The notes beneath the pieces are model-generated. The model was not told the origin of the DNA and made no database searches. It saw only the letters and a program-made list of their open reading frames with translations. A stretch of DNA of 64,000 nucleotides from Bilabrum cf. latius (Eukaryota). Numbering within the stretch: position 1 is the stretch's first letter; each line of letters begins with the position of its first letter. The DNA lies in NCBI GenBank assembly GCA_965178125.1, contig OZ237736.1, positions 310,001-374,000 of the forward strand, read 5' to 3'. This document shows, piece by piece, positions 452 through 63,750 of this stretch. A program made the position numbers and the translations under genes.

Positions 452-1318
452 ATGCAACAGTTGGATCTTGTTTCGATAGTCACAATCATTATATTGCAAA
501 TTTGGGCCGGTTAGGGTTACCTCATTCCGTGTGTTCCCGAGGTGAATCTTTCGAGCCTGGTCACGTCTACTGCAACGAATTGCAGCGTCTAGGCGGACGA
601 AGGTTAGTACTCCGATGCAAGCGAGGGCTTTAGCGTCCCAGCGTTACCCAGTACGTTGGACTGGGGCAATCTTTGGGAAGCGTCGGGGCAGCAGCCATTG
701 CTTCGGGTTCGTTTGCGCCACCCCAACAGCGGTCCAAGCTCCGATACTTAGTACAAATTCAAAGACCTGGAGGTGACAGCCGGCGGAGATGGTTTGGTCG
801 TGTACGCCTGTCCCTTTGGTGTCCTGGATCCAGACTCTTGCGATGTGAACCACATCCCCGAGGTTAGAGTTGCTACTTGCCCACTCTGCTTGCTGGACAG
901 GACGAATCTCGGCGCCGTATCCGGTCGCATCACTGCTAGTGCAGGGGACCCCGGTGCAATATACAACTTTAGTACGTCGCTGTTCTGCGCCGATGCTACC
1001 GCGAAGGTGCCGCGAGGCGAGATACCTGCGATCTTGTCTCCGGCTGGACCAGACCTGTGCACCGGCGGAAAAGTGTGGTTCTCGCAGTTCGAAGGCAAGG
1101 CGCCAACATTCACCACAGGAGGGTGCGCCAAGGCCCCTCAGGACTGCTCGCCTTTCACTGCGTGGCCCCCTGCGGTGGACGGGTGCTGCGGGGCCAAGGG
1201 CGAGCGGCCAGGGAGCCTCACGTCCTGCATGCCGTGGGACGACCCGACAGCGGTGGGCAGGTGCTTCGACTGCCACGAGAGTTGCAAGCCTGCGTCGAGC
1301 CCGGCCCCAGGTGTCTAA
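452..1318 (+). CDS. secreted Cys-rich hypothetical protein (4 in-frame TAG read as Gln)
   Basis: ATG452 gives MQQLDLVSIVTIIILQIWAG (signal-like), which reads through TAGs into ORF 773..1318 in the same frame and ends at TAA. Confidence 0.65.
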
Positions 1319-2169
1319 GTGACGAGTGCTCCTCGGCCCCGCAGCCTAGCCCTGGCCGCCACCTTCGGGGCAGTGGTGTCCTTGTCCATGGGCACCCCCC
1401 GTGGAGGGCGTGACGATCAAGGTGAGGAGGGGAGGGTCGCACGGGAAGGAGGCGAGGCCGAGGAAGAGGAAGAGGGTTCAGAGGAGGAGAGCCAGGGGGT
1501 ACCACTGGAGGGTTTGCGTGCAATTTGGCGGTCAACTGGGGAAGACACCCGAGGCACTATTTCGGGCCTTTGAGGCCACTGGGCAGCGTCTGGCGCGAGG
1601 CGCAGTTATCTGCTTGTAGAGTTTGTTCAGCTATCTGGCTGCCATAGTTCCTATGCAGCATCACGAGCACGAAGAAGTCCGATCATCAGAGGCGGCTATT
1701 AACGGCGCTGCGTCCGCATTCGTCGGGAAGAAATAAATCACCTCCCGCCGCTAACCGCGCCTCGCGGCGGCCAACGGCACTCGCCACAGTGGCCCAAAAC
1801 CATGCCCTCGTGGTTCCTTCAGCTGCCTGCCAAACCGCACGCAACCCCATCGGCTCCGTGCAGCTCCACATGCAAGCACAACCCCACCAGTGACGCCCCC
1901 AAACGCCGCCCCACCCGATCCCGGCGCCATTGTCTCCATGTCCAGTGTGACGCGTCCATGACGCGCCGCTGCCGGTCCCCGGGATGCGCGCCCTCGCCGA
2001 GGCCGTCACCGTTCGCGCGTTTCCCGTTGTCGTTCTGCTCCCGCTCTCTGGGACACCTAGTTGCCCTGCCTTGCTTCGAATGCCCTCCCACCGGCGGACT
2101 CGCTGTCCGAGCCATCGCGATCCGCCGAGTCAGCCGTCGTGCCACTTCGACGATGCGCCAATCGACTCG

Positions 2170-2460
2170 GGCTCATGCACTCAATCAGAAAAAAGTCTGT
2201 TCCAGTTGATTTTTGCGTTTTGTACATTTCATGTTCCAATTTCACTGTTCACGCACTGCTCGAATCAGTTAAGGGGCCGTGCATGGATTCTTGTGTGTCA
2301 CGCCCGATCGGGCCCCCCGTGCTGTGCTCACGGAGACGGCAGGAACTGGTTGGTGAACAGCACCGCAGGGTCTACACGAGGCACCTCGCCGTTCCACGGG
2401 CCAGGACCGATCTCCACCTCTGACACACCATCTAGCCCCGCCAGAATCCTGCCCCCCTTC
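2170..2460 (-). pseudogene. inverted, diverged copy of the 3' end and 3'UTR of the NMT1/THI5-like gene
   Basis: The reverse complement matches about 26238-26530 (GGRILAGLDGVSEVEIGPGPWNGEVPRVDPAVLFTNQFLP plus downstream sequence). Confidence 0.85.
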
Positions 2461-3656: not shown

Positions 3657-6600
3657 TCACTCGAGCATCTCGCCCAATGCAGCTAGACCGGAGGGCACAA
3701 ACAGCCCATGCATCCAATCCGAACGACTCCCCTCGCTGCCTCCCTCTTGCTGCTCTTCTTCCACACCACGACTCAGCCAACCAAGCACGCCATGCACACA
3801 GCCGGCCTCCATGCGCATCCCAGGCCTGACAACAGGACCAGAATCCTGCCCGATTGCCTCGTTCGGCACGATCCACGCCCGTCTTCCATCCACTTGCATC
3901 GGGTCGAACGCCCACGTTGACTGGAGTCGCTTTGGTCCAGCTCGCTCAGTGTAGAGCCCGAGGTTGCTGCATAGCTCCGCTTCGGCCATCGGCCCGTGAA
4001 GTCGCAGTAACAGGATAGGCACTAGGTGGCGGAGCACGCGCTGCGAGGCATCTCTTGTCGCGCGGGCACTGCTCACGGACGCAGTATCAATGATGGCGCA
4101 CACCCAGAGCATTCGCAGCGCGTCGATCGCGCTCACCACAGGTCTTGCCCGGGGAGGGTGTGCCAGCTGCTTGCCGACCATCAGCTGCACCTGCTAGCTA
4201 CCCACCACGCCCGCATCTGCTGGACGTGCGAGTGATAGAGGCAGCCGAAATGAATTCGAAGTCAGGTTCCGTTTATTCACTGCCCGCACAGTCCCTCGGG
4301 ATCCCTCGGGCCATGCGGTGAGCACCGTGGTGCAGCCCTCTGTACCGAACATGAGGTCATGCCACGCTTCTGATGCGTACGGCTCAGACTAGCCTGCCAG
4401 CATTGCTGCAGTTGCATGCATCCAACCTTTGGCATCATCAACGTCCTATGATTGTGTGTCAGACACGGTGTGGCCAGACACTCCAACCGCTAACGTTGCT
4501 GCTTTAGCGAGGACGCGTGGGTCAGCTAGCCCAGGTGACGACAAGAGAGACTCCAGCGAAGCTACAGCGCTGCCTCTTTCGTCACCCCAGTCCTACTGTA
4601 GCGTCACTTGTTCCCTGAACTGTAGCTCGGCGCTAGCTGCCATCCCAGAGATTGCACCGGCGTGTGGCTGCAGCAGTATCTGCACGTCTTGCGCTCTTGC
4701 AAGCAACCTTGACTGCAGCAAGGCAAGCTGACTTTCGATGCCCATGACTCTCGCGCACGTTCTTGCCTTCAATTCTTCCGTGGATTCCACGAATGTGTTC
4801 TCATCTACCTCTGCGAGCTCCTCTGCTGATTGCGCGAGTGCATCGAGCTGACAAGCCAGCGACCAGGAAGACGTGCACGCAGCGAGCAGTGCCCGCCTGC
4901 CCTCAGGGCCCGTACCACACCGCATGCTTCCCGCTTTTCTAGCGGCCATCACCTGCGGCTCGATTCTCTCTGCGACAAGCTCGTCGAGCTATTGCATGGT
5001 CTGCGCGGCGCTCATCTGGGGTAGTTGTTCCCGAGCTAGTACGGCCATGGTTGCCGCGGGTAGTCTGGGATCAAGAGCCCCCCAGTGCACTGCATGGTGC
5101 TGCATCTTCGCGCTTGCTTCTCGGACCATGCCGTGCAAGCGGCCTGCGACGTCGTTTGAGCTCTACCCTAAGCTGCTGCTGGCCTGCAGCAGACCGCAGA
5201 CTGATTCCGCTTGCCCAGCTAAGTGGTCCGGCCCCATCGATGATTCCGTTGGGGCGGACAGTGTAGAATCGGCTGAAGCGTGACCCAACCCCAGAATCAG
5301 GCTTCTGCATGCTGCAAGGCCCAGCTGGTAAGAAACAGCAGCCATTTCTTGCGCAGTTTTGAGCTCAGCATTGGCTTCCTGCTCGTTGTACCGGTGAGCT
5401 TCCACCCAATACTCTTCGGAGTGTCTAAAAGCTCGGCCTCTGCGCGCAAGAGCATGACGTGTGAGCTGCCAGTCCTTGCATAGCACTTCCAGGGTCCGAA
5501 CACCGCGGGCGGTCTCCTTGATCCTGGTATCGAGGAACGACTGAACGCTTGGGGACTCGCCCAGATCCGAACTCAGTGCGGCCCGCATGTGCCATACGAC
5601 GTCCGTTGCCCTCTGCGGGTGCACAGCCTCCCTCAGCTTGCCAAAGCCATACGTTGACGTGTCATCGTCGAAGGAACACGAGGCGTAGCCCATACGCTCC
5701 AGGCGACCCATCGCCAAGGCCGCTTCTGCTGCCGCCCCAGCGACCCGGCCACGTAGTGCCTCGTCCGCATTCAACTCATCCAACTTGCTGGCACAGCGCA
5801 CGGCAAGGGCAGCGCATCGCCGCTGGAGCATTTCAACTGCCGGGCACAGCTCCTCCATGACCATGCCATAACCAACGCGCATGTGCCTGTGACCGAGCAC
5901 TTCCTAGACTCGATGCTCGTCGCCATGCACTCCTTGCTTCTTGCCTTTTCGTTTGCGATCTGGACTGCCCGTGTATTTCTGCAGGTAGATGGTATCCAGA
6001 AGCCGTGAATCTGCAGGGTACGGCTGCTCTCCGAACTAGAGAGCATCCTAAACCTCAGCGCGTGCGGTCGCGGCAGTCGAATCAGCCACGGGCGCGGGGG
6101 TGTGCGGCTCGCTGTCATCGCTTGCAATGAGACCATCGCCGACCTCGCCCGTGATTGCGAGCGTCCTAAGCAATTTCATCGCTTCCAACTACTACTCCGT
6201 GTCTCGCATCTCCCGTGCTCGGACTGAAGCGATGCCGACCCCACTGCTAGCCACAGGCGCATTTGGCTCTGCGTTCGCTTCATCCCCTGCCGCAGCATCT
6301 GCGGGCAGCAAATCTTCTTGCTGGTGCCAATCATCGCCCGCCTCACAATCATCCGAATGAGGGTCCCCTCCTTCCAGCACAGCTTCAGAGTCGTCCTCTT
6401 GCACCTAGCCCTAAAGGTAGGCATCCAGGGGTTCGAGGGAAAGCGAGGCTGCAACAAGCAGGCTAGACACAGTTTCAAAGGACCGCACGAGCTCCCCCCT
6501 ATCTAGAGCATCCGCTGCTGCAACCATCATCTGCTGCTGCACGGCTAGTGGCGCTTCCTGGATGGGGCGGGAGTCTTTAGATACCCAGTCGCGAAAGGTC

Positions 6601-7502
6601 TCGTGATGCGGCGCGCTGCCCTCCTTCAGCACATCAGCCAGTCGTACCTGTGAGGTGTCTAATGAGGCCACTTGACCGGCGGCAGCACTGTGCACCAGGT
6701 CCTCTGGCCTCCTGCCGACGGGCGGCTAACTGCCTGCCACCACATGAACCTGGCCAGAGTTATTGCCGGAGCCTGAGCCAGTGCTAGCACCGGTGCTGGT
6801 GCTGTGATCCTGGCTCTGGAGCGACTGTAAGCCTGCGTTGCACCATTGAGCTACCACACTGTAGTCAGATGAGATGAGCTCAGATTCTGCCAAGCGAAGC
6901 AGTTGCACGGTCAAGTGAGAAGGGGCGCAATAGCCTGCCATGCCTGCCGCAAGCAGAGCGCGAGAAACCGTCTACGCTGTGCCAGCCGGTGGGGTCGTTG
7001 GGATCGGATCGAGGTACTTCCGGCTTGCTCCCTGCTCGGTATCGGATCGGCTTGGGCCGGCATTGCGAAGCGGCCTGGCGGCAGCAGCGAGTGCTGCTGC
7101 TACCAACCAGGGTTCGGCGGCGCCAGCCCTGGCATAGGCGAGAGCTAGCTGGACCATCTCAAGGTCGCGAGCATCGTTGCTTGTTCCACTTTTGGGTGTG
7201 TCTTCCAGGCTGGTCAAGTGTACTCGAACTGCTGACAGGTGTCTCGTTGAGGCAATGCCATCCTTCGACATCGCCTGCTTTAATCGATTTAAAACACTGT
7301 CGTTAGCCTTGACGAATTCATCCATACTGGCTGGGTCAAGCGCCTTCTTCTTCTTCTTCTTGACTGCCTTAGATTGGTTGAACGAATGCACTGCCGCCTT
7401 TACTTTGTCTTTCACGGCTATAATTTTCTCCAATGCTACGACCTCGTCGATTTTACTTACACTACCACCACAATCTACGGCGCTCTTCTTGCTGACTCGC
7501 AT
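3657..7502 (-). CDS. large helical hypothetical protein, about 1281 aa (many TAG=Gln)
   Basis: ORFs 6972..7511, 6726..6941, 6411..6695, 6192..6404, 5163..5900, 4593..4952 and 3657..4190 share one frame, are separated only by TAG, and end at TGA 3657. Confidence 0.8.
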
Positions 7503-7758
7503 CAAATCCACGAAAGTACGCCAAGCTTGTCGACGCTATTCGCCCCCACGAACACGCCGGGTAGGCAAACTATTGCAGCATCGTAAAACGCTGCGAACCT
7601 GGACCCTAGCGATCCTCATTTTACTAGTATTATTCCAATTTGGAATTTCAGGCCGTCTATCTGCCCGTGCATGCATTCACATTACTGTTGGCAACCGGAA
7701 TCGTAATAAATTCTGTGCTTTGTGCTCAACACACAAAAGGAGAGAGCATGACATCAAG

Positions 7759-9189
7759 ATGATACGATTTGCCGTAATTGTCTTACTTGCAAGACTGTGC
7801 AGCGCATGTGACAGAAGTCGCAGTGCGGAGGCTCGAATTGCTATAGCGGAAGGCCTACAACCTAGACTAGCTGACATAGGATTTGGGATCAGAAATGACA
7901 CGTCCTGCCCCTTGTCTCTTGCTTCAGACGTATATTACCATTGGGAGACGTCGAAAACTCGAAGTGACTAGGGTTTCTGGCAGTGTGGCTCATGTGGCAA
8001 ACAGTTCAGGACAGAGACGTACTTGGAAGCACATTTCAAAAGAAAGCACCCCGATCTGATTCAAAATTCGTCAGGCATTTGCCTATCAGATGCTTGTCCC
8101 ATAATTGGGTGCTCCAACCACCGTATCATTACGGCTGAGACGGAGCAACAGGGGGTGCTCATGCCAGCGGAGCAACGTCACCTCGAATGCGTGGATATGG
8201 TCAGTCAGTGCGCTACACGCCACACTGCAGATGGCATAGGTCAGCCAGTTGCTGATTCTGTACGGGAAGAACTCAAGACGGGTGAGTCCACTAGCCTACG
8301 CACGTAATTTCAAGCTCCAAACCCTCAGATCTCTTGTCTCTGCTCACCTCGATCTCGTCCGCCCCCCGCAGTTGCCGAGCAATTCTGCTCGGGTGCTTCC
8401 AGACGAGACAAGTTGCTCCCTATCGTGGACGAGACGGGCAGATGGAGGCACCCGAAACGGCGCGGCGCCTCCGCCGATGCCCAGCTCGGCACGGTGCTGA
8501 CCATCGTGGGGTCCGTCTTCGGGATCACGGGGCTGGTTTTCATCCTCTTTGTGTGCGTCGACGGAGGCGCTTGCGTCGCGAAAACCTCGGGATACAGCCG
8601 TCGCACCAACGGTGGTCGCAAGGCGGGCCGCCGCGGGTCGAGGTCGAGGTCAAAAACGGGTAGTGGTGCTTTCAGTGGCACAAGTGGGGGCGGGGGCGAA
8701 GGATGGGACAGCGACGTCGACGGCTGGGAGGGTTTGGACGGTGGCGGGAACAGTTCCGGCTTTGAGGAGGACGCTCGCAGGATGAAGGGTAGGCAAGACA
8801 TGCAGGATCGGAAGGCGCTCGGGGGCAGGGGGCGCCGCGCAGTAGGCCCCGACGGTGGTTCCGCTGCAGGACGGGGCTCCATGGCTGGGTCAGGGGGTGG
8901 CCTGTTTGGGCTAATCGGGGCGACCACGGAAACCGTATCCACCGGTTTCATAGCGGCAAGCCGTGTCGCCATGTATCCAGTGCGTAGCTTGTTCCCTGGA
9001 AACAGAGCCGGGAAAGTGGGAGGTGGTGGACTCCGGCGGCTGGGTGGTACCGCTGCTTCGAGCACAACTCGGACTGGCTCTGGCTCATTTGGCGTAGGCC
9101 TGAACGGGGTAGTTGGGGCGTTTCCAAGCAGAGTCGGGGGTTCTGATGCCGGCCAGACCCTCCGGAACCGGCCGTCGAGGCCAGTTTGA
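7759..9189 (+). CDS. signal-peptide C2H2 zinc-finger membrane protein; exons 7759-8281 and 8372-9189
   Basis: MIRFAVIVLLARLCSAC signal, TAG 7969 read through to WQCGSCGKQFRTETYLEAHFKRKH and ICLSDACPIIGC, TM helix after the intron, TGA end. Resembles the plant secreted-C2H2 family. Confidence 0.8.
8282..8371 (+). other. spliceosomal intron, 90 nt
   Basis: GTGAGT...CCCCGCAG; removal joins the frames of ORFs 8023 and 8413. Confidence 0.8.
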
Positions 9190-11854: not shown

Positions 11855-11991
11855 TGGTGGTTAAAACCCTTGCATCGTCTTTTTTGGGTCTGTCTGCGCA
11901 TGAGCTCCTGCAGGCGCAACTGCAGTGCACTGCTAGTGGCAGTTGATCCGATCCTACCCAGTAGTTCCATTCTAACGGACCTCAGCTCAAC

Positions 11992-48839: not shown

Positions 48840-49415
48840 TTATCTTCGCAGCTGGGAAACATCGCTGTCAAATACTAAATTTTTCATTTCCTCCTGAACG
48901 TCTCGCGAGGTAGATGCCCCGGTGCGCTTCCCTTGTGATGCTGCTCCTGGCACGGGAGAGCCAACGTGCCTAGCTGTCATTGTTCGGCACAGACTTGGTG
49001 GCAGCGCTCTCTATGCACTCCTGTTGACAACTGCTCCCGCATACGACCCACTTGGCTATATGCTACAAAGAACTAGGGGTCTATCGGAATTCATCGTGTG
49101 GCGCACGGCAGCGGGAGCGAATCCGCTAGAAGCTGCAATAATGCCCACGGATGCAGTCACCGAGGATTTTTGGCCATCGAACTGGGCCAACGATCCTTCC
49201 AGCTCCCGCACCGACTTGACAGGAAGAGGTTTGCTAGTTCTTTTGCACTACACAGCTATCGTCGTGTTTTGTGGACCATCACCAAGCAAGTCAATCCCAC
49301 CATCCGAAGGACCCCCGACGCGCAGGAAACTGGCGACACGAAGTCGCTGCAAAGTAGCCCCAACTACGTGCTCATATTCGGTTCCTGCAGCCACAAAGCT
49401 TTTCCATCGCCGCAT
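48840..49415 (-). CDS. RRG7/DUF2034-like, Mrr-type PD-(D/E)xK nuclease-fold protein
   Basis: GTEYE..RVGGPSDGGIDL..IAV*CK..VRELEGSL..VGIIAASSGF matches the family with *=Q. Ends at TAA. Alternative starts at 49451 and 49508. Confidence 0.85.
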
Positions 49416-49529
49416 CCTTGCCAGCAGTGCACAATTCGCGCAGTTGCACATGGTGATTTTTCGAAGCCGGGTGACGAGCAACTTAATTTGGCTCTGCAGC
49501 CCGACCATATCTTATCTTTCTCTTACACA

Positions 49530-54000: not shown

Positions 54001-54665
54001 GTGGTGGCCGTTGCTCGTTCAATCGTGTGCATGTCGACACAGTACCGGCAGAGGGGCGGCAAACACCCCGTTCGATCGGAGAATCGAGACGAAATAATTT
54101 ACGTTGGAATCAAACGGTTTGGGTCTCACCTGCTGGGCTCGTCCTCGATTTTCTTGAGAGTCTGCGCGAACTGGAAATACGGCACGGGCGATCCGATGGA
54201 CCAGCCTGCGTCAGCGACAGGGTCGTACTCGCCCTTCGTCACGCTGCTGGTCTCGTCTCCAACTTGGCCTCCGCTGCCAGCACCGGATGAAGGCGCCGAC
54301 GCTTCTCCTGCCTTTTTTGCTTCAGAGGAACCGGATACTTCGACGCCAGTCGCAGCCGACGATGGCTTCGAAACAGCTGATTTCTTCTTTTCGCCCGAGG
54401 ATCGAGGCTGAAAGAAGCTGTGCAAGCCAGAACTAGCCTGCGGCTCCGTCTTGGCGCGTTTGGCTTCCGGGGCATCGTCCGCTGAAGCCCGCGGACGCTT
54501 CTCTCCGGGAGAGGCAACTGCTTCGTTCTCGTCGTCGGATTCGATGGCAACTCGGCCTGCACCTGCGCCGTTGGCTACACCCTCTGGTCTCAATACGCCT
54601 TCATCATCGCTATCAGCGACTTTGGAAGCGCTTTCACGAGACAAGCTGGCGCTCCTGCGAAGCAT
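51079..54665 (-). CDS. LIG1: DNA ligase I; exons 54665-54130 and 53974-51079
   Basis: ELGIGD, PMLAKPT, EYKYDGERAQ, VLDGEVVA, AFDLLYLNG, EGLMVK, WLKLKKDY and ALRFPRL motifs. Four in-frame TAGs; ends at TGA. Confidence 0.95.
52063..52147 (-). repeat. poly-Ser coding microsatellite in a ligase insertion
   Basis: (GAT/GAG/GAC)n on + reads as a TCA/TCC/TCG run on -. Confidence 0.9.
53975..54129 (-). other. spliceosomal intron, 155 nt
   Basis: GTGAGA...TTGCGCAG; the join gives KIEDEPSRLGITAILRDFFRSVI, the expected LIG1 DNA-binding-domain sequence. Confidence 0.88.
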
Positions 54666-55061
54666 ACGAACGGTGACGCCCCTTCAAACAATCTTAGAAT
54701 GAATGCTTCTTTTGTACTAGATGATGAAATCATAAATTTAAGCTAGATCTTACATGTTTAGAACAGCAGCGCGGTGTAGCTTTGACAGGTGGATACTAAT
54801 TTGCGGCCAGGAGTTGCGATTTGCGATTGCCCTGATCCCCTATTCAACTCGAAGCTTGGATATCAAACCCTGCGATGATCGCCCAGCAACTCGTCCCAAC
54901 TTCTGGATTCGATGGAGAGCCGCGATACTGACCTAGATTTGGAATCTTGTGCGATGCTTGCAAATTTTGAAACCATGGCGGCGCCGCGCAACTGCAGGTT
55001 CCGCAATAGCTCCACAGATGGACTGGACAGGACCACGGGTGTTTCAGGTGAGCAGCGCCAT

Positions 55062-57515
55062 TTAACGGCCACAGAGGGCAACCCTCGCCGCGTATTGTGC
55101 AACGCTAGGCGCTAGCCCGCACGCTATGCCGAATCGAACCACCTCGTCCCGCAGCCGGAGCGCAGATCCAACCCCAGCACACAGCTACAACACGCCAACT
55201 TGCCATGCCAGTGGTGCATCGTGGTAAATTGGAACAACCGACCACGCAGGCGATCCACTTGCTAGCAATCTCGATAGCTTGGCTTCTGCGGACTCTTTGG
55301 CTCGCGTGTCTTCGGCATCGAGTGCTTGCTCGTAAGGAGCCGGAGCACTTGCTTCATGCCGGGCAGTTTCAGGAGCAGCTTTCGTTTCCTCCGTGGAGCG
55401 ACTCGGATGCGTTCCCTTGGTATACTTCCCAGCATCACGGCTCGCTTGGTTTGATAGCGCGAGCGCTGGCACGGCTCCGCGAGTATGAGCACCTGCTTGC
55501 CTGGCCATGGAGTGAGCACCTGCCTGGGCACCGGCCCTTCCGATGGAAAAGCTGCTCGGTGAGAGAACGCTAGAGCTGGCTGGACTTGCAAGCTTGATTT
55601 CATGCTATGATCCGCTAGATGCCCCCTCGCCAATTCCAGCCGCTGCCTGCTTTCGCCGAGCGAGCACTCTCTTGGCAAGTCCTTTGAGCAGAGCGCTGGG
55701 CAAGTCGCTGCGTGTCACGATGATGGGCCGACCCTGCAATTCGCGGGGCTGGTGCTTAAGCACCTCCATCATCATGCTGTTGGGTGCTCTGTGGCCGATA
55801 CCAGCTGCACTCGATTCCCCAAAGTAACCCCCGCTGCGCTGCGCCGCCTCGTTAACCACAGAGCCAGTCTGCAGCGGTGTCAAGCCCTAGCCCCCGGCTC
55901 CTAACCTACGCGGGTCGGCAATATCACCGCTCTGTGCATATTTTGCTCCTGCCATTACCTCCCTTTCCTCCCTGCTGATCCCGAGCAAACCGGCGGACCG
56001 GCCCGGCATGGCCGCTATGCTCCTTCTTGCTTGTCTTTTTGGCCGACTGCTGCCACTGCCATCCCCTGTGGAACGTTCGTCTCCGAGTCGCGCTGGACCT
56101 ACAATGCCAGTTGCATCCACGGCTGGTGGAAGTGCTACCGGTCTGCCTTCTTTCTTGCGATGCTGCACCTTGCTGTCGCCTCCCCGCTGCGTAGTCATAG
56201 GCGGTGGGGCTCGCCTAGCGCCCTGCTCGGCTTGCGACGCAGTGCTTGACGATCGTGCTCTGGCAGTGCTTGGTCGCAACGCCCCAGGTCCTCGGCGGCC
56301 GCCGGCAGCCGACCTTGAGGCGCTGGAGGCCTCTGCCTCTGCTCGCCTCTGCTGCCTCTGCGCCCTCTGTATCGCCTCGATGTGACCGCCCAGTCGCGCG
56401 GCGCTGCCTCCGGGGCTATCTCGGAAGAGCTGCTGGGCGATTGCTTCCGCCGAGTAGGTCGCAAGATTGCTCACAATCATCACTTTGCGCCGGATCGAGC
56501 CCTTCAGAGCGGTTGCAACCTCGGGCACAGCGAGAGGGGGGAAGCACAGGAAAACGACCCTGCACCTTCGAAACACCCGGGCTGGTTCCCGGCTAAACTA
56601 TACGCCGGAGTCCTTGAGCCCTTGCAGTCCCGGGCTCTCAACAACTGGAACCATGCAGTGGATGCGCCCGAGCGCCACTCCGCAGCGAGCGAGCAGGCTG
56701 ATAGTCGCGCGTGCGACGCCACCGCACCCGATGAAACCGATGCCGAATTTGGTGCCCTCCGCAGCATCCACCAGGTCGACCACCCTAGATACGCAGGACA
56801 TGCATATGAACGCGTTTTGGGCGGCGATGACGCTTTGTGACATGCGCCGCAACTCGAGGGCTCGCGCGAGCAGGTGCGCCTGGCCTGGGGGTGAGCACGC
56901 GTGCGGGTCTGCTCCGGCCCTTGGCGCCGAGCGAGAGATTCGCTTCGTCTCTATGCCACCCTCATAGTACATTTCGCTAGAATCTAGCATCGCTGGGTTG
57001 AAACCTAGCGGGCTAGAGGGGATCCTGCTCCGTGCTAGCGACACTGGCGTCGGGGCTATGCCTGGGTGTGGCGATACCTACGGCGCTGCCTATGCTCCCT
57101 GCGGCAGTTCTCCAAATGTATCCCTTGCTAGTAGAGCTGTATCTGAAGCAGAATGATCTGATGGCTCGCCAAACTTGCTGGGATCTCCTCCGCCGTGCAA
57201 CGAATCCACCGGTGTGCGGTGCGGACGGACCGAAGCCGCAATTGACGCTGCAATCGACGCAGCCGATGCCTTCTTCTGCTCATCATACACGCCAAGCAAG
57301 CCTTTGATAGAAGTACGAAATGTATCAAACAGTAGCGACTGGAATACTTTTGGTTGCGCAGCATCAGATTGCATTCTTTTTCGCAAGTGCAATCGCCCGT
57401 CTCGGCTAGTCTCATACTTTGCTAGGGTACCTGCCTCCTTTAGATCTACAGCCTACTCTAAAATGCCAATCCCTCTCAATATGGTTGCCGGGTCTACATC
57501 AGTTGGAGTCGCCAT
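55062..57515 (-). CDS. NOXRED1/pyrroline-5-carboxylate-reductase-like Rossmann-fold protein
   Basis: Five ORFs in one frame joined by TAG. IGFIGCGGVA dinucleotide-binding motif and CRVVFLCFPP..VPEV..MIVSNLA. Ends at TAA. Confidence 0.7.
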
Positions 57516-57704
57516 TCCTTCGTACTGAAGCAAACTTATTTTAACGGAATTCGAGGATCCGGAACGAAAGGAAAATGGATTCATCCAGCCGCCCCAGCAA
57601 ACAGCGGAAGAAACCAATCAATTGGGTCACATAATTGGAGTTTTATTCGTACAAAGCATTGGTAATCATGCGATGAAGCGCATTGGTGGTCCAATCAAAG
57701 CGTG

Positions 57705-60281
57705 ATGAACTGCACGTCAATTTGGCTGCGCCATGTCGCAGTGGGTCTGATTTTTGTTTGCAGCGGGCATGTCCACGCACACAATGTACCAAATTTAGTT
57801 ATATTCGGCTTGGAAGGGTGGCCCAGGTTCAGTGGAAATGGCAGGTATACCGGTACGCTCACAGCAGCGCTTGACACCCAGAACGGCACAAGATACACAG
57901 CAATTCTGGCCTCTTGCATGCGGAACGATGCTACTCGAATGCTTGATAATAGGTTCCTTTTGTTGGATGTTTGCGCAAATGCACCACAGAGGCAGGTGCA
58001 GTGGACTAGACTGGACGATTGGAGCGCCTGGGATTCGTACGCTGCGCTGTCGTTCAGGCTTGGGATGGAACTGTGCTCTTTTGACGGCAGCGGTAGCGCA
58101 GAGGCCATTGGTCTGTGGAATCGTTTGCACTTATTTGGTGGAGAGAGCGACAGTGCTGTTATTTTCGCCGGCATTGACTGGCACGGGATGCTGGCTGCTG
58201 GCGCATTTCGCATGGGCTGCTCCCTCGCCGCCCGGAAGGAGACCAATCCTGATTCAAACCTGCAGTCGTAGCATTTACGTATAGTAAGAATGGTTTTGCA
58301 GGGAACAACGGCTTCCTACTGGAATTTCCGGGTGTTTGAATCGGCCCGGGTGGAAGCGCAAGCGACCTCACCAACAGATGCATGGCCCAAGGCAGCGGCA
58401 TCATGGTCCTCCTTTCAGTTCGAGCGACCGCATAGCGTCGGCGATAATTCGAACAAAACAAATGCTCGCTTCGAGACGGGTCACCCTCTGGATATTGGCA
58501 TGCTAGAGGGTTGTGCCGCTGTCGCAGCCAGCAGAACCATCGCGCTTTCTAGCAAGGACAGGGCTGTCTTAAAGGTGCTGGGCGCCAGATGCTGGGCATG
58601 GATGCAGCGCACTCGGCTGGTCTAGGATGCAGTAGTCTAGCCTGATGGCACGCGACCGTCGCAGCCGTCGATGGTCTCTACCGGTCCGGATGGCGCGAGT
58701 CCTCTGTTGCAACCAACTAGCCGTGCCATGATGAAGCCTGCGCGTGATAGCGCCGGTTCTGGCCTCTCCGAATAGATTTCATCTGCAAATGGCGGCAGCG
58801 AAAGTCGGGCTGCGGATATTTCCATACACTCGTGTTATTGGCTGTGGGATGGCACGGCTGGATTTGGCGCCGCGACTGAGACGGCGGGCGCACGTGCATG
58901 TCGCGATGTATCCAGCGACTCAACACTTGGTGCATCTGACTCGGAGACTCACAAATACGCGCCCTGTACACTTGGCGCACCAGATGGTCCACCCAGAATG
59001 CTCTCTCCAGCGCAGCAAGCTTGCCTCGCTGCTACGGTGCTAGCAGCGGGCAACAAACTGGCACTGGTGCAGCCACACGACATAGAGACCGGGTAGTTGG
59101 TCCACGTTATGCTGCAGAATAACAGGGGGGTGAAAAGAGCAACCACGGGAATTGATGTGCTACTGCCACCGCTGCGACCCGACATCTACTATCTAGTAGC
59201 TGGATCGCACCTAGAGATAGAGAGTGCGTCGAGCTCAGCTGGGCGCGGCCAACGCGAGAAAATTGTGAAATCGGATGACTCGATTGCACGCGCGGTTCAA
59301 ACTCGATCTTACTTGCTGCACTGCGCGCGCATCGTGCCTATCAAGAGGCCGTGGCTTTTTGTTGAAGCCGTAATCCGTGCGAAGCAAGAGCTCCGCGCTG
59401 CCGGGATTGAACCCGCCTTGTGTGCCCCTGGGTATAGCGTAGAGTCGCGGAAAAGCCAATTCAATGAATCCGAGGCTAGCTAGCAGCCCGGTCCCGCCGG
59501 CGAAGTCCCGACCGCACCGAACGATTTCGCTGGCACGAAGCTCTGCGTGGAGCACAGGCACTCTGGCGGACACGACAGCTTGAGGGATTGCCTGGTTGGG
59601 GACCTCCTCGCACACTTCCCAACTGCGCACATTATTACAGAGTTTCTGGACGCCCGTGGTCTAGCCTCTCTTCTGCGCAAGTCAGTTGCGTACGTGCATG
59701 CCGCTGCCTAGGAGCCCTACGGAATGGCTCTGGTGGAGGCAGCTGCATTCGGGGCCGTCCCCATCGTATCAACGAGTGCGGCTGCGGCAGTCACCAACGC
59801 ACAGCGGCAAGATTGTGATGATGCGCACCAGTCAGGGAGTGAATCTGAGTCCAGTCAGGCATGCAGCTAGTAGGCCAGCGTCACAGGCTGTTCCATCGGC
59901 GCTCGGGTCGGGAAGGAATTTGCGTGGGGTGACCTCGTCGTCGACGGTGTGCAGCGCAATCAAATTGACCGCGTCGGCCTTGATACCCCGCATATTGGAG
60001 CCACTGAGCTTGTCCGGCCCCGTTGTGGTGAGAGCATTGGGGTTGCCATCGGGTCTGATGTTCCGGAGAGTACAGCCGTCGCTCGGCTGGCTGAGACTTT
60101 CGTTCACAAGGTCCTAGCTGACAGTGCAGCGCTCTCTGCCGGAGGCCGACAGGCCGAGGGCACGACTGGCGGCATGGATTCATATCGGTCCAGAGGGCTA
60201 TCCCGGGCCACTGCTTGGAGTGTGGAGGAACACGCGGCCGGATTGATATCGTTGCTCGAGCTGGCAGCCAGAGTTCCATGA
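57705..60281 (+). CDS. GT4-family (GT-B) glycosyltransferase with signal peptide
   Basis: One frame with many TAGs. FSGNG, YLLHCARIVPIKRPWLFVE and YVHAAA*EPYGMALVEAAAFG (Ex7E motif). Ends at TGA. Confidence 0.82.
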
Positions 60282-60429
60282 AGCTTACCTACCTGTAGGG
60301 TCTGACTAGCCTATGAACACTTCGCCAGAGGACTATTTTGATAGAGCTTGAATCGGATTATTGTGACCCAATTGTCTTCAACAGAGTGTTCTAGCGATAA
60401 TCCCAAGCAAAATCAATCAGGCAGATGAA

Positions 60430-63400
60430 TCATTGAGCAAGTGAGCTCGCCAATTTGTGCACATCGCCAGCACTCGCTGGCTTGCCCAATACTCCATTCA
60501 GCCCGACCGCCTTGAACGCCTCCAAGTCTTCGCCTAGCGCGTCCCCAGTCAGGCCCACGATCATAAACTGAGATCCAAACTTCGCCCGGATCGCTCGGGT
60601 CGCCTCCACACCGTCCATTACCGGCATAGACTTATCCATGATTATGAGACCCAGCCAGCCGATGCTAGAGTATCCATGGCCGTCATCTTCGCCTGCAGTT
60701 GCAGTGGCGACCTGCACACCAGCAGCGACACCACGTACTGGACTCTCTCCCGCACATCTCTTCCGGCACGCTTCCACTGCCTCCTTACCGTGCGCGGCCT
60801 GGTATACCTGGTAGCCCATCCTGCGCAGGCCCCTAGCCAGGAGCTTCCTATTTGTGGGCACATCGTCAACAACCAGGCACCAGGCCTTCAAGCTGTCTTG
60901 TGCTGCTGCCATGCTTGCATCAGTGGTCGAAGCTTGTGACGCTCGGTGGCTGCTAGTTGTGTGTGATGCTGCGTGCAGACCAAGGGATGGCTGCGGTGCC
61001 ATGTCAGACCCATAGGTACCGTCGCCCCAGCTTGATTTCGAGCCACCCCTGCTACTTTGCTCTGCCTGCCTCGCTGCCTTGGATCGCTTCGAGCTTACGA
61101 CGCGGCGCTTCTACGCAGCCTATGGTCCATTGTCGCCGGACTGAACGACGAAACGCTAGGATCTAGATGCTGATGACCCGGCACGCCCCCGACCGTCGTT
61201 GACTTCGCCCTCCTCTGAGTGCAACAAGCTCTCGCCGTTCGTGCTTCTCCCGTTGCTGCTCTCACCATCGACGGAGTCCAAACACGACCCGTAGCTTCCC
61301 ATTTCTAGCTTTCCAATGCTCGTTAGGAGCAGCCTTCCGTTACCGAGTGACGAGAATTGAGTCGTGCTCTCCTTCTGGCTGCCACTGGTTGCAGCAGGCG
61401 ACGCCGAGTCATCGCACAGGCGAAGCGGGCCCAGTTCAAACGAAAACGTGCTGCCTTTGCCTTCTCCTTCACTGCAAGCGCCCAGATCCCCGCCCATCTG
61501 ACGAGCGATCCCGCGTGAGATGTACAGGCCCAGACCGGAGGAGGACCCCGCGTATTCCACGCCGTGCCTGGTCTGCTTGTACGGGCTGAATAGCTCATGA
61601 AGGTCTGCTTCTGATATGCCACACCCCGTATCAGAGACAGCAATGACAATCCTAGCGTTCGTCGGGGCCTTAATCCTTCCCTTTTCGTCCCGGGCGAGGC
61701 TGCCTCCTAGCAAGATACCGCTGTCGCTGTCGAGAGAAGAGGGCTCCACCTTGCCGGAAGGCGCCTAGCCGTCAGCGACGACAGTGACCTCAACCCCGCC
61801 GTTGTCATGTGCTGGCTGCTTTCTGATCGAACTGAACAAGTCGCTCGGTACCACCTTGGCGGACTTAGACGCTTGCGACCCTCCAGCCGACGATGAGCTG
61901 GACTGCCGAGCACTGCGTGCCCCTGCCGAGCGCGCGACAGAAGCTGCAGTTGTGCTAGTCTTCATGCCTGCGCGTCCTTCCGCACCGGGCGACTGCGTGT
62001 CTGAACTGACAGCGCCAGAGCTCCCATCCTTTGCCGCGGCAGCAGGTTCGACCACCTCCAGCCTGGCCCGGATGCGGACGCAGCCGCCCACCGGTGTAAA
62101 CTTCAGAGCATTTGACACAAGATTTGCTACAACCTGCTTGATCCGCACGGGGTCGCCTCGGATGTGACCCGGGACGTCGTCGCCGATCGCCACGTCGAGA
62201 GCGATGCCCCGGCTATCGGCCGTTCGCTGGAAGGTCGCAACGATGTCGTCCAGCACCTGAGGCACGTCCACTACTTCGTCCCGCAGCTTCAGCCTGCCCT
62301 GCTCGATGCGCTGGGCCTCGAGCACGTCATCGAAGATGCACTGCAGCCCCTTGCATCCTTCTTGCTGGGACCGGAGCACGTCCAATGCCTCCCTGACCTC
62401 CTGGCGCAGCTCACCACTGGCAACGGTATCTGCCTTGGACCCGCTAGTGCCGCTTGTCCTCCTGCCCCGGCTGTGTCGAACTGAAGAGAGCGCCTTGATT
62501 CGAGTCAGGCTCGCCTCCAGCTCGGATACTGCCAGAGACACCGCCTGAAGAGGCACCCGGGCCTCGTGGAAGATGTACCTGGTGAACTGCTGGATGGTGT
62601 TCAGCCTCGTGTCGGCAGCCTCTCGCTTGTACACCTGTGCTTGCGCTGCCTGCTTCGCGACGAGGTACAGGTCGCTGTGGAGAATGGCTGCAGACGTCAT
62701 GTACCGAAGAATGACGACGAGGATGTCGGTGCAGAAAACGAGAATGTCGCCGATGTCCGGCCCGACTAAAATGTCGATGTAGTAGTTGATGCCAGCGACG
62801 TACACGAGGATCAACACGGCTGCAGGCACGTTTACGCGAGAGCAGCAGCTGGGTGGAGGACCTTTTTCGGCTTGCTCCGAGGGCGAGGCATTGCTTTCTT
62901 CATTGCCTAGGATTGAGCTGGTGGGGTCCACGAGGTACACGGCTGGGTCACCACTCCGTCGGCTGCTCGGTGTGCCACCACCGAGGTCGAAATCGAGCCA
63001 GGGGGCCAGGTAAGGGTCCATTTGAAACCGAAACATTTCACCAAACACCAGAATCGCGGAAAGCAAGACTCCGAGGCCAAAGGGTATCTAGAGCGGGCTT
63101 CCAATATACTGCGCCAGAAAGCCGGAGACTACCATCAGTACCAAGGCAATCGACATTGCGACGACTCGCCGCAGCCTGAGTCGAACGACCAACTATCCAT
63201 CGTTCGAAAGAGCAGCTGCGCTTGAAATTGCAATAATCGCCCGGTGGTGATAGCCTGGGTGTCCCAGAACCGTTATACCATACGATAAATGCAAGCTAAG
63301 GAATGCATAGGCGGATCCAACCTGCGGAAAGCTGGGTGTAACACGTGTACATTCAATGATGATTCGATATACTGGCACTGTCCATAAATACACCCAGGCG

Positions 63401-63750
63401 ATTCCGGTACTCACTGCTGTGTCAAACAGAAACATTGAGGCCAGGTACATCCGTGATTTGGACGTGTCCAAGAAGGCCAGGCCGCACAATGCCAGCATGC
63501 CATGCAGAAGAAACGCACTTGACAGGGCGGCGTGCATAACTCTATCTGAGAAATCGACTGGACCCGTGCAATCCTGAGACAGTACGAAGCAGGTCGTCGT
63601 GAAGCTCCAAAAGCAACAGAGCGCTGACAGTATCAGCATGGTCAGGTACAATATCCATTCATCAAAAAAATTAGACACCATACCAATGCTGGAATAGGCA
63701 CTTGCCCTATCCGTTGCGATCCGCCTTTGGGAAAGGATATATATCTTCAT
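60430..63750 (-). CDS. multi-TM hybrid sensor histidine kinase (HisKA, HATPase_c, REC)
   Basis: H-box YIFHEARVPLQAV, N-box NLVSNALKFT, G1 VSDTGCGI, G2 SSGLGLYIS, GKGSTFSF, and REC VVDD..MDKSMPVMDG..GKP. Domains are joined across TAGs; ends at TGA. Start uncertain (63861, 63750 or 63681). Confidence 0.9.

What the first reader, a model, noticed from the sequence alone, without database searches (positions are those of the whole stretch)
452..63750. Non-canonical nuclear genetic code: UAG = Gln while UAA and UGA remain stops
Seen in sequence: nearly every gene is broken only by TAG and never internally by TAA/TGA, including the essential DNA ligase I. Tandem TAG-TAG occurs in frame (6189-6194, 59868-59873). 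Genes end in TGA (16 cases) or TAA (5 cases). From family knowledge, TAG sits on conserved Gln: LIG1 51139 YRD*PQIRN (human YRKQSQIQN), the Mrr/RRG7 catalytic VQCK motif at 49248, DRC3 22913 SV*LSF (human SLQLDF), and BIN4 50523 CL*L (plant FIQL). UAA and UAG usually change meaning together in nuclear codes. Split codes are rare (UAG=Gln in Iotanema / NCBI table 15, UAG=Leu in one rhizarian). Inference: the host resembles a bicosoecid stramenopile, where I know of no such code, so this may be an independent origin.
Basis: partly seen in the sequence, partly recalled or inferred. Interest (0 to 1): 0.95.

Follow-up and report, generated by a model that had tools for sequence, protein, structure and literature searches.

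The report
Protist that reads UAG as glutamine
This stretch comes from a GC-rich, stramenopile-like protist whose genes are full of in-frame UAG codons that are kept in spliced mRNA and sit where relatives have glutamine, while UAA and UGA still end genes; this rare split genetic code is already known from a few unrelated protists.

Summary
Confirmed. In 12 homology-bounded gene spans (6083 codons) there are 34 in-frame TAG, 0 TAA and 0 TGA. Off-frame counts are 60/36/261, so P is about 5e-27. The 19 long ORFs hold 109 TAGs and end in TGA or TAA.

Contigs from other studies lack three GT-AG introns, so they derive from spliced RNA. They carry the TAGs unchanged, which rules out editing and assembly artefact.

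Glutamine is the best reading:
- The LIG1 TAG column is Q in 120 of 120 homologues.
- The BIN4-like column is Q in 46 of 92 rows, including a 96%-identical relative.
- At the RRG7/Mrr catalytic column Q scores best of all 20 residues.
- Between two paralogues, CAG is TAG's commonest partner.

A syntenic relative from a metagenome (L001) also has 11 in-frame TAG and no TAA or TGA, with TAG/CAG swaps against the window. The code is therefore a trait of the lineage.

A LIG1 tree places the organism among stramenopiles. The code type (NCBI table 15) is known from Iotanema and some ciliates. I found no stramenopile report. The tRNA-Gln(CUA) gene and eRF1 could not be examined.

The parts
51079..54940 (-). 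DNA ligase I gene. Last exon 51079-53974; introns 53975-54129 and 54655-54753. Holds 4 in-frame TAGs and ends in TGA.
   Evidence: Pfam finds DNA_ligase_A_N, _M and _C. PDB match to human LIG1, E 3.7e-175. Spliced contigs of X5 and X6 lack the introns, while the X1 contig keeps them. GT-AG ends confirmed.
51139..51141 (-). TAG at an invariant Gln of LIG1 (MYxxQ), 20 codons before the TGA stop.
   Evidence: Q in 120 of 120 homologues. CAG in the relative L001. TAG is present in an X6 contig with 0 differences.
48840..49511 (-). RRG7/Mrr-type nuclease gene with 3 TAGs. The one at 49248-49250 is in the catalytic (Q/E)xK motif. Ends in TAA.
   Evidence: Pfam RRG7 E 1e-15 and Mrr_cat E 2.3e-9. Q scores best of all 20 residues: RRG7 54.2 against next 51.4, Mrr_cat 43.9 against next 41.4. 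TAG is shared with relative L001 at this codon and at one other.
49530..50858 (+). BIN4-like gene with 3 TAGs, one at 50523-50525 in the conserved C-terminal domain. Ends in TGA.
   Evidence: 92 library hits. The column reads Q 46, T 12, gap 7, L 6, E 4, V 4, K 3, H 3, others 7. P0145 (96% identity) has Q; P0146 and L001 have E (GAG). An X5 transcript-like contig covers 49542-50891 with 0 differences.
20708..23155 (-). DRC3 (dynein regulatory complex subunit 3) gene with 7 in-frame TAGs. Ends in TAA at 20708-20710.
   Evidence: PDB DRC3 chains match, with 8j07_3 aligned over residues 78-296 and 729-808. End-to-end alignment with 6 DRC3 homologues; the TAA falls at the homologues' C-termini.
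27035..33682 (-). Giant RCC1 + BspA-type LRR + ephrin-receptor-like membrane protein, paralogue 1. 15 TAGs; ends in TGA.
   Evidence: Pfam. Codon alignment with paralogue 2.
35255..41668 (-). Paralogue 2 of the same gene. 8 TAGs; ends in TGA.
   Evidence: Pfam. 88% amino-acid identity to paralogue 1. In 20 aligned pairs with TAG, the partners are TAG 3, CAG 6, TCG 5, others 6.
3657..7676 (-). 1339-codon ORF of unknown family with 16 TAGs, including tandem TAG-TAG at 6189-6194. Ends in TGA.
   Evidence: No Pfam family found.
57666..60281 (+). Glycosyltransferase-1-like gene with 9 TAGs, including tandem TAG-TAG at 59868-59873. Ends in TGA.
   Evidence: Weak Pfam Glycos_transf_1 hit. One X5 transcript-like contig covers 57604-60365 with 0 differences and spans all 9 TAGs.
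55062..57617 (-). P5C-reductase-like gene with 7 TAGs. Ends in TAA.
   Evidence: Pfam F420_oxidored; PDB PYCR2. X5 contig 54951-57508 covers all 7 TAGs with 1 unlocated difference.
60430..63894 (-). Hybrid histidine kinase / response regulator gene with 8 TAGs in the ORF. Intron at 63322-63414. Ends in TGA.
   Evidence: Pfam HATPase_c and Response_reg. Spliced X5 contig joint. GT-AG ends.
11947..15504 (+). 1185-codon ORF (leucine-rich, no Pfam hit) with 9 TAGs. Ends in TAA, followed by TGA 6 codons later.
24973..26370 (+). NMT1/THI5-like gene with 1 TAG inside the domain. Ends in TGA.
   Evidence: Pfam NMT1 E 5.4e-28. Per-residue scores: E 90.8, Q 90.2. The two PDB homologues have D and E.
16901..19018 (+). 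Chorismate synthase gene with no TAG in its 560 homology-bounded codons. Ends in TGA.
   Evidence: Pfam Chorismate_synt E 2.9e-118.
8282..8371 (+). Probable 90-nt intron holding the TAA at 8305-8307 that seemed to end the zinc-finger ORF.
   Evidence: GTGAGT...CGCAG, the same ends as the three RNA-verified introns. Not checked with reads.
43910..44071 (+). Probable intron holding TAG 43915.
   Evidence: Splice-motif scan. The X5 contig begins to match at 44072, with 681 earlier letters that do not lie on 44001-44071.

Best explanation
The window is nuclear DNA of a GC-rich, intron-poor, flagellated protist of stramenopile affinity. In it UAG has been fully reassigned from stop to glutamine, while UGA (the main stop) and UAA still terminate. 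This is the code of NCBI table 15.

Shown here:
- UAG sits in frame inside expressed, spliced, homology-supported genes at about 0.6% of codons. That is about 15% of Gln codons, as many as CAA.
- UAA and UGA never occur inside those genes.
- UAG is retained in RNA-derived contigs.
- Conserved UAG columns are glutamine.
- A syntenic relative shares the trait.

Inferred from established knowledge, not shown here:
- Decoding is by a tRNA-Gln with anticodon CUA, derived from a tRNA-Gln(CUG) gene copy. Such a tRNA pairs with UAG but not with UAA.
- eRF1 has lost UAG recognition but keeps UAA and UGA, giving it an RF2-like specificity.
- New TAG codons then arise mainly by C-to-T change of CAG, and at sites that tolerate Gln.
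For: 1. In-frame stops. 34 TAG, 0 TAA and 0 TGA in 6083 homology-bounded codons, against 60/36/261 off-frame; P = 4.6e-27.

2. RNA evidence.
- The X5, X6 and X7 contigs skip 53975-54129, 54655-54753 and 63322-63414, which have GT-AG ends on the gene strand. The X1 contig runs through them, so the former derive from spliced RNA.
- 25 of 37 in-frame TAGs in 44001-64000 lie in the listed X5 contigs, and the LIG1 51139 TAG lies in an X6 contig.
- None of the 6 variant places is in a TAG codon.

3. Amino-acid identity.
- LIG1 column: Q in 120 of 120.
- BIN4-like column: Q in 46 of 92 rows, which is 46 of 85 non-gap. The 96%-identical P0145 has Q.
- RRG7 and Mrr_cat profiles: Q is the best of 20 residues, by 2.8 and 2.5 bits.
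- LRR_9 profile: Q is the best of 10 residues tried, by 1.1 bits.
- Sum over five Pfam columns: Q 273.2, K 269.3, S 269.2, E 268.5.
- Combined column likelihood: Q leads E by about 10 to 13 bits.

4. Paralogues. CAG is the commonest partner of TAG, in 6 of 17 non-identical pairs. TAG is the commonest non-identical partner of CAG: 6, against GAG 5, AAG 4 and CAA 3.

5. Relative L001/L002.
- Same gene order, with LIG1 C-terminus 86-88% identical.
- 11 TAG, 0 TAA and 0 TGA inside the tblastn matches, 1432 codons.
- Window TAG aligns to CAG at the invariant LIG1 Gln.
- The relative's TAG aligns to window CAG at 3 sites.
- TAG aligns to TAG at 2 RRG7 sites, including the catalytic one.

6. UAA and UGA as stops.
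- LIG1 ends at TGA about where its homologues end.
- DRC3 ends at TAA at the homologues' C-termini.
- If TAA were used like CAA relative to CAG (32:163), about 7 internal TAA would be expected beside 34 TAG. None is seen.

7. Context. The base after TAG resembles that after CAG (G>C>A,T) and differs from that after terminal stops.
Against: - No tRNA gene lies in the window or in L001/L002. No genome is held. The tRNA-Gln(CUA) and the eRF1 change are therefore unobserved. There is no protein-level evidence.

- Several columns do not favour Q:
  - Glycos_transf_1 prefers W 30.3 and Y 30.1 over Q 27.7.
  - NMT1 gives E 90.8 over Q 90.2, and the two PDB homologues have D and E.
  - F420_oxidored gives K and N 34.9 over Q 34.5.
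  - DRC3 columns read E in 5 of 5; Q1, R3, T1, S1; and T2, S2, N1, G1.

- Ser codons recur as partners of TAG. There are 5 TCG pairs between the paralogues, all in one repeat array, and 2 in RRG7 against the relative. The relative has GAG (Glu) at the BIN4-like column.

- Contigs drop rare variants, so partial editing cannot be excluded. One difference in the X5 contig over the P5CR-like gene could not be located.

- That UAA terminates is inferred from its absence inside genes and its place at ORF ends. No 3' end or peptide was seen.

- The stramenopile placement rests on one gene, and the query sits on a long branch of 0.94.
Confidence: 0.88

Rival explanations
1. UAG is a sense codon but stands for another amino acid. 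Glutamate is the runner-up; serine and lysine are the other one-step candidates.
For: - Glu: 5 of 5 at DRC3 column 71. NMT1 gives E 90.8 over Q 90.2. GAG in the relative at the BIN4-like column.
- Ser: TCG is the partner in 5 of 17 paralogue pairs and in 2 RRG7 pairs.
- UAG=Glu, UAG=Ser and UAG=Leu codes exist elsewhere (passages of PMC11687900).
Against: - The LIG1 column has 0 E and 0 S in 120.
- The BIN4-like column has E 4 and S 0 in 92.
- The RRG7 and Mrr_cat profiles put Q 2.5 to 3.4 bits above E and S.
- The summed likelihood puts Q about 10 to 13 bits above E.
- The 5 TCG pairs lie in near-identical repeat units, so they may stem from one or two events. TCG is also the commonest Ser codon there.
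Confidence: 0.05
2. UAG has two meanings, as in Condylostoma or karyorelict ciliates. It is a sense codon inside genes but a stop near some 3' ends.
For: In a few ORFs the last TAG lies close to the TGA with no homology beyond it. The CN-hydrolase gene has 9 codons after it and TVP23 has 30. For those, termination at TAG cannot be excluded.
Against: - No ORF needs TAG as its stop. All 19 run to TGA or TAA.
- The LIG1 TAG lies only 20 codons from the stop, at an invariant Gln, and homology continues after it.
- Paralogue 1's last TAG, 18 codons from the stop, is CAG in paralogue 2.
- The base after TAG is like that after CAG.
Confidence: 0.05
3. UAA is reassigned too (a table-6-like UAR=Gln code) but is almost absent because the genome is GC-rich.
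For: - TAA is rare everywhere: 382 triplets against 899 TAG on both strands.
- Two TAA 'stops' are followed by an in-frame TGA within 3 and 6 codons.
- One apparent TAA stop turned out to lie in a probable intron.
Against: - 0 internal TAA beside 34 TAG where about 7 would be expected from the CAA:CAG ratio.
- 0 internal TAA in the relative's 1432 codons.
- Letting TAA be sense lengthens the large ORFs only by a few codons at their ends.
- RRG7 ends in TAA in both species.
Confidence: 0.02
4. The TAGs are not translated. They would be assembly errors, pseudogenes, RNA-edited sites or introns.
For: A few TAGs are probably intronic or upstream of start codons.
Against: - The sequence is identical in runs of three studies.
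- TAGs lie on spliced, transcript-sized contigs.
- Decay would give TGA about four times as often as TAG, yet there are none.
- The trait is shared with a syntenic relative from a separate collection.
- At most 5 of 109 TAGs fall in any candidate intron.
Confidence: 0.01

Closest known systems
Iotanema spirale (Fornicata): UAG = Gln, UAA and UGA stops (Panek et al. 2017, PMC5304391; abstract and passages read)
   Same: The same code (NCBI table 15 type). UAG is decoupled from UAA. The postulated mechanism is the same: a tRNA-Gln(CUA) derived from tRNA-Gln(CUG), plus altered eRF1.
   Different: Iotanema is an anaerobic metamonad in another supergroup and was known from a transcriptome only. The present organism groups with stramenopiles in a LIG1 tree, has 57-67% GC, and uses TGA rather than UAA as its main stop.
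Ciliates with UAG-only Gln: Hartmannula sinica, Trochilia petrani, Protocruzia tuzeti (McGowan et al. 2024, PMC11687900; passages read)
   Same: UAG = Gln with UAA retained as a stop. There is no sign of dual use. UAG is found at conserved Gln columns.
   Different: Those are ciliates with nanochromosome- or macronucleus-type genomes, and UAA is their dominant stop (93.5-100% of C-terminal alignments in that paper). Here the chromosomes are gene-dense with ordinary spliceosomal introns, and TGA is dominant.
UAR = Gln codes (NCBI table 6: many ciliates, ulvophytes, hexamitid diplomonads, Streblomastix, Amoeboaphelidium; listed in PMC11687900)
   Same: Stop-to-glutamine capture of UAG.
   Different: There UAA is Gln as well. 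Here there are 0 in-frame TAA in 6083 + 1432 codons.
Other UAG-only reassignments: rhizarian exLh and some ciliates (Leu), Scotinosphaera (Ser), ciliate PL0344 (UAG = Glu, UAA = Lys) (PMC5304391, PMC11687900, PMC10553269; passages or abstract)
   Same: UAG is decoupled from UAA.
   Different: A different amino acid. Leu, Ser and Glu all fit the conserved columns here far worse than Gln.

Membership tests
Nuclear code of NCBI table 15 type (UAG = Gln; UAA, UGA = stop) | UAG occurs in frame inside bona fide protein-coding genes | tested here: met
   34 TAG in 6083 homology-bounded codons, P 4.6e-27. 11 TAG in 1432 codons of the relative.
Nuclear code of NCBI table 15 type (UAG = Gln; UAA, UGA = stop) | UAG columns correspond to glutamine in homologues | tested here: met
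   LIG1 Q 120 of 120. BIN4-like Q 46 of 92 rows. Q best of 20 residues in RRG7 and Mrr_cat. Summed likelihood puts Q first by about 10-13 bits. Some variable columns favour other residues.
Nuclear code of NCBI table 15 type (UAG = Gln; UAA, UGA = stop) | UAA is not a sense codon and ends genes | tested here: met
   0 internal TAA where about 7 were expected. TAA at the DRC3 C-terminus matches the homologues' ends. RRG7 ends in TAA in both species. Termination itself is inferred, not observed.
Nuclear code of NCBI table 15 type (UAG = Gln; UAA, UGA = stop) | UGA is a stop | tested here: met
   0 internal TGA against 261 off-frame. 15 of 19 ORFs end in TGA. LIG1 ends at TGA where its homologues end.
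Nuclear code of NCBI table 15 type (UAG = Gln; UAA, UGA = stop) | UAG is present in mature mRNA (no editing to CAG) | tested here: met
   Intron-less contigs of X5 and X6 carry the TAGs with 0 differences. These are contigs only, so a minority edited form cannot be excluded.
Nuclear code of NCBI table 15 type (UAG = Gln; UAA, UGA = stop) | A tRNA-Gln gene with anticodon CUA | not testable with these tools
   No tRNA in the window or in L001/L002. No genome is held.
Nuclear code of NCBI table 15 type (UAG = Gln; UAA, UGA = stop) | eRF1 N-domain changes that abolish UAG recognition | not testable with these tools
   eRF1 is not encoded in the window, and no query sequence from this organism was available.
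UAR = Gln code (NCBI table 6) | UAA as well as UAG is translated as Gln | tested here: not met
   0 in-frame TAA in 6083 and 1432 codons.
Ambiguous stop/sense codes (Condylostoma, karyorelicts) | The same codon also terminates genes, depending on its position near the 3' end | tested here: inconclusive
   No ORF needs a TAG stop, and a TAG 20 codons from the LIG1 stop is read through. Two ORFs with a late TAG cannot be judged.
Stramenopiles (host lineage) | Groups with stramenopile sequences in phylogeny | tested here: inconclusive
   In a LIG1 tree of 45 rows the query sits in a clade of 22 (SH-aLRT 91) with Blastocystis, Aplanochytrium, a Thraustochytrium-labelled transcriptome and Hondaea. 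Within that it sits in a starred clade of 11 unnamed or transcriptome sequences. This is one gene, the branch is long, and no 18S was available.

The most novel reading that the evidence does not exclude
This is the first stramenopile lineage, with at least two species-level members, in which UAG alone has been captured for glutamine while UAA and UGA stay stops. It would be an origin of the split UAG/UAA code independent of fornicates and ciliates. It arose in a GC-rich genome that uses TGA as its main stop, and UAG now supplies as many Gln codons as CAA. DNA and RNA data sets from several studies exist, so the eRF1 that tells UAG from UAA, and its tRNA-Gln(CUA), could be read off directly.
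Probability: 0.6. Interest if true: 0.75.

Novelty: new member of a known kind. Interest (0 to 1): 0.7.

Why it matters
UAA and UAG nearly always change meaning together, and cases where they part are few. Each independent case is a natural experiment on how eukaryotic eRF1 can be made to ignore UAG yet still read UAA and UGA. That question bears on code evolution and on engineering amber-free eukaryotic hosts.

This instance is a GC-rich, TGA-terminating, intron-poor protist outside ciliates and metamonads, and a relative shares the trait. It adds a new phylogenetic data point and a different mutational background in which to test capture-type scenarios.

There is also a practical side. Gene callers using the standard code will break almost every gene of this organism. 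The protein collections searched here appear to hold such pieces: P0145 starts at an internal Met, and P0146 has no start Met.

Tried and rejected
- No whole genome is held for the window. tRNA, eRF1 and 18S could therefore not be sought.
- ARAGORN and Rfam found nothing in the window, and ARAGORN found nothing in L001/L002.
- Earlier scan notes: nothing for this genome, for the words searched, or for relatives.
- The look-up of sequencing runs listed no holder on record as RNA. I infer RNA origin only from the intron-less contigs.
- The DRC3 word search was swamped by LRR proteins. It gave 24 hits, and I aligned only the 6 with DRC3 names or DRC3-like length. I left out 17 LRR-only or long proteins and P0021, a near-duplicate of P0012.
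- The RRG7 word search gave 0 hits.
- The glycosyltransferase had 0 PDB hits. PDB gave only 2 weak hits for the P5CR-like protein.
- The Atlas look-up of chorismate synthase gave no useful taxonomy.
- The TSA prefix of the nearest EukProt entries could not be tied to an organism. The search for three forms of the accession found 0 papers.
- The first metagenome scan, with P0146 alone, found nothing. The second, with an alignment, found L001 and L002.
- ORF-length statistics alone do not discriminate. Making TGA sense opens even more long ORFs in this GC-rich DNA, so I used homology-bounded spans instead.
- A BLOSUM-smoothed vote with one vote per column separated Q from E only narrowly, 5.9 against 5.3 bits. 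Using the real depth of the LIG1 and BIN4-like columns widened the gap.
- The script stopped with an error after two of four genes. The TAA extensions of RRG7 and the P5CR-like gene were not tabulated. For RRG7 there is no TGA or TAA within the next 200 codons, which are antisense to the neighbouring gene.
- Literature searches for a stramenopile, labyrinthulomycete or bicosoecid UAG reassignment found none. Subscription journals and supplements were not visible.

Full report
**What the window is.** The 64-kb window has 57-67% GC. It holds no tRNA or Rfam RNA and is densely packed with eukaryotic genes. With TAG masked as X, Pfam and PDB searches identify the following:
- DNA ligase I
- chorismate synthase
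- DRC3, an axonemal protein
- a CN-hydrolase
- an NMT1/THI5-like protein
- TVP23 (DUF846)
- an RRG7/Mrr-type nuclease
- a BIN4-like protein
- a P5C-reductase-like protein
- a glycosyltransferase-1-like protein
- a hybrid histidine kinase
- two tandem giant RCC1 + BspA-LRR + ephrin-receptor-like membrane proteins

No whole genome is held for the window.

ORFs delimited by TAA and TGA are free of those codons by construction. To avoid that circularity I counted only inside spans bounded by the first and last residue aligned to a Pfam family or a PDB homologue. This gave 12 genes and 6083 codons.
- In frame: 34 TAG, 0 TAA, 0 TGA.
- In the two other frames of the same DNA: 60 TAG, 36 TAA, 261 TGA.
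- The chance that all 34 would be TAG is 4.6e-27.

Across 19 long ORFs there are 109 TAGs, 104 after the first ATG, in 17,120 codons. In the raw table the ORFs end in TGA (15) or TAA (4). ORF-length statistics alone are not informative in DNA this GC-rich.

**Corrections to the observation.**
- The TAA at 8305-8307 that appears to end a zinc-finger ORF lies in a probable 90-nt intron. Its ends (GTGAGT...CGCAG) match the three verified introns, and the ORF continues in frame to a TGA at 9187-9189.
- TAG 43915 lies in a probable intron whose 3' end coincides with the start of an RNA-derived contig's match.
- At most 5 of 109 TAGs fall in any candidate intron under a loose splice pattern, and one of those 5 is contradicted by in-frame DRC3 homology.

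**The TAGs are genuine and are in mRNA.** Runs from three studies hold this DNA. I laid four of them on 44001-64000.
- The X1 contigs are long and run through introns and intergenic DNA.
- The X5, X6 and X7 contigs are gene-sized and skip 53975-54129, 54655-54753 and 63322-63414. These stretches have GT-AG ends on the strand of the genes.
- I therefore take X5, X6 and X7 to derive from spliced RNA, although the tool labels them only as guesses.
- One spliced X5 contig (52153-53973 | 54129-54653 | 54753-54940) carries two LIG1 TAGs with no differences.
- In all, 25 of the 37 in-frame TAGs in this 20-kb stretch lie in the listed X5 contigs. The LIG1 TAG at 51139 lies in an X6 contig. 33 of the 37 lie in X1 contigs.
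- The only six variant places reported are not in TAG codons.

Caveats: contigs hide minority variants, and one difference in the X5 contig over the P5CR-like gene was not located.

**Which amino acid.** Three conserved columns speak clearly.
- *LIG1.* The TAG 20 codons before the stop is Q in 120 of 120 homologues. These are the best 120 of 5285 hits.
- *RRG7/Mrr.* I translated the catalytic (Q/E)xK column with each of the 20 residues in turn. Q scored highest in both profiles: RRG7 54.2 against S 51.4 next, and Mrr_cat 43.9 against E 41.4 next.
- *BIN4-like.* The column reads Q 46, T 12, gap 7, L 6, E 4, V 4, K 3, H 3 and others 7, over 92 library hits. The query was submitted with Q at that residue (table 15), which is a negligible bias for a 137-residue query.

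I tested four further Pfam-embedded TAG columns with ten candidate residues, whatever the outcome:

| Profile | Result |
|---|---|
| LRR_9 | Q best: 66.6 against T 65.5 |
| NMT1 | E 90.8 over Q 90.2 |
| F420_oxidored | K and N 34.9 over Q 34.5 |
| Glycos_transf_1 | W 30.3 and Y 30.1 well over Q 27.7 |

Summed over the five columns, Q (273.2) leads K (269.3), S (269.2) and E (268.5). When the depth of the LIG1 and BIN4-like columns is used, Q leads E by about 10 to 13 bits. A cruder vote with one vote per column gave only 5.9 against 5.3 bits.

**Internal and cross-species codon comparisons.** The two giant paralogues are 88% identical at the amino-acid level and align at 20 codon pairs with a TAG.
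- Partners: TAG/TAG 3, CAG 6, TCG 5, AAA or AAG 2, and one each of TAT, CCT, GAG and CTG.
- TAG is the commonest non-identical partner of CAG: 6, against GAG 5, AAG 4 and CAA 3. This is what a synonymous C/T change predicts.
- The five TCG pairs all sit at one position of near-identical LRR repeat units, so they may reflect one or two events.

The library search also revealed close relatives. P0145 is 96% identical in the BIN4-like domain and has Q at the TAG site. P0146 is 74% identical and has E.

An alignment-seeded scan of metagenome contigs returned two identical-sequence loci, L001 and L002.
- They share the window's gene order: C-terminus of the large unknown gene, RRG7, BIN4-like, LIG1. 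The LIG1 C-terminus is 86-88% identical.
- Inside the tblastn matches (1432 codons) this relative has 11 in-frame TAG, 0 TAA and 0 TGA.
- Codon by codon, the window's invariant-Gln TAG in LIG1 is CAG in the relative.
- The relative's TAGs align to window CAG at three sites.
- Two RRG7 TAGs, including the catalytic one, are TAG in both.
- The remaining partners (CTG, GTG, TCT, TCG, GGG, GCA, CGC, AAG, GAG, AAC) lie mostly in poorly conserved stretches.
- The genes end in the same stops in both species: TGA three times, and TAA for RRG7.

The trait therefore belongs to a lineage and was found again in a separate collection.

**UAA and UGA.**
- Neither occurs inside any homology-bounded span in either species.
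- If TAA were used relative to TAG as CAA is to CAG (32:163), about 7 internal TAA would be expected.
- LIG1 ends at TGA about where its homologues end. DRC3 ends at TAA at the homologues' C-termini.
- Termination at UAA is still an inference. Two TAA ends are followed by TGA within 3 and 6 codons.

A dual stop/sense use of UAG is not needed by any ORF and is contradicted for LIG1. It cannot be excluded for two ORFs with a late TAG.

**Mechanism.** Shown: UAG is decoded efficiently enough to sit up to 16 times in one ORF, and it stands where glutamine belongs. It makes up about 15% of Gln codons: 34 of 229 in the bounded spans.

Inferred from established knowledge (Panek et al. 2017, passages read):
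- A tRNA-Gln(CUA), one anticodon change away from tRNA-Gln(CUG), reads UAG but not UAA.
- eRF1 must have lost UAG recognition while keeping UAA and UGA.

Neither component could be examined here.

**Who it is.** The best named LIG1 hits, at about 60% identity, are Hondaea, transcriptomes labelled Thraustochytrium and Aplanochytrium, and Blastocystis.

I built a tree from 44 of the 120 listed homologues plus the query, choosing the named ones and the best unnamed ones.
- The query falls in a 22-row clade (SH-aLRT 91) with those stramenopiles.
- Within that it falls in a starred clade of 11 unnamed or transcriptome sequences.
- The query's branch is long (0.94).

'Stramenopile' is thus a single-gene lead, and 'bicosoecid' is untested.

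**Comparison with what is known.** The code is NCBI table 15. UAG-only Gln is reported for Iotanema spirale, Protocruzia tuzeti, Hartmannula sinica and Trochilia petrani. UAG-only Leu and Ser, and UAG=Glu with UAA=Lys, occur elsewhere (passages of PMC11687900 and PMC5304391; abstract of PMC10553269).

Six full-text searches found no report of such a code in stramenopiles, labyrinthulomycetes or bicosoecids. Subscription papers and supplements were not visible.

**Verdict.** This is a new member of a known kind: probably a further independent origin of the split UAG/UAA code, in a new supergroup and a GC-rich, TGA-terminating genome.

Noticed in passing
27035-33682 and 35255-41668 (minus strand); fragment at 33964-34905: A tandem duplication of a gene of about 2200 codons, with RCC1 repeats, a long array of near-identical BspA-type LRR units, an ephrin-receptor-like Cys-rich region and a transmembrane segment. 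The two copies are 88% identical. A short, degraded extra copy of the C-terminal part lies between them.
   Followed up: partly
52057-52152 and neighbouring parts of the LIG1 gene: LIG1 carries long low-complexity inserts between its conserved domains, including a run of more than 30 Ser codons plus acidic and Ala/Lys-rich tracts. Read laying skipped this stretch as a repeat, and chimeric joints such as 45326>53121 arise there.
   Followed up: no
16901-19018: Chorismate synthase has no TAG in 560 homology-bounded codons, where about 3 would be expected at the average rate. It also carries large Ser/Ala-rich inserts. Strongly conserved genes may avoid UAG.
   Followed up: no
53975-54129, 54655-54753, 63322-63414, 8282-8371: Introns are few and short (90-155 nt). 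All four end in CGCAG and begin with GTRAG, a tight consensus that could help gene modelling for this organism.
   Followed up: partly
L001:1863-2645 (minus strand): The relative's RRG7/Mrr ORF holds 8 TAGs in 261 codons (3%), several times the density seen elsewhere. Some may lie beyond the true start or stop.
   Followed up: no
L001 1-5228 against window 46000-53000: Gene order and orientation (large unknown gene, RRG7, BIN4-like, LIG1) are conserved between the window and the metagenome relative, although the faster-evolving proteins differ by 40-50% in amino acids.
   Followed up: partly
62010-62676 and 52672-53338: Word depth rises sharply in all four runs over the histidine-kinase ATPase domain and over part of LIG1. 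The variant letters at 62323-62347 come from other contigs. This most likely reflects conserved or repeated sequence from paralogues or other organisms in the runs.
   Followed up: no
P0145, P0146: The database proteins of the close relatives start at an internal Met (P0145) or with no Met at all (P0146). That is what standard-code gene calling across an upstream TAG would produce, so public protein sets for this lineage are probably fragmented.
   Followed up: no
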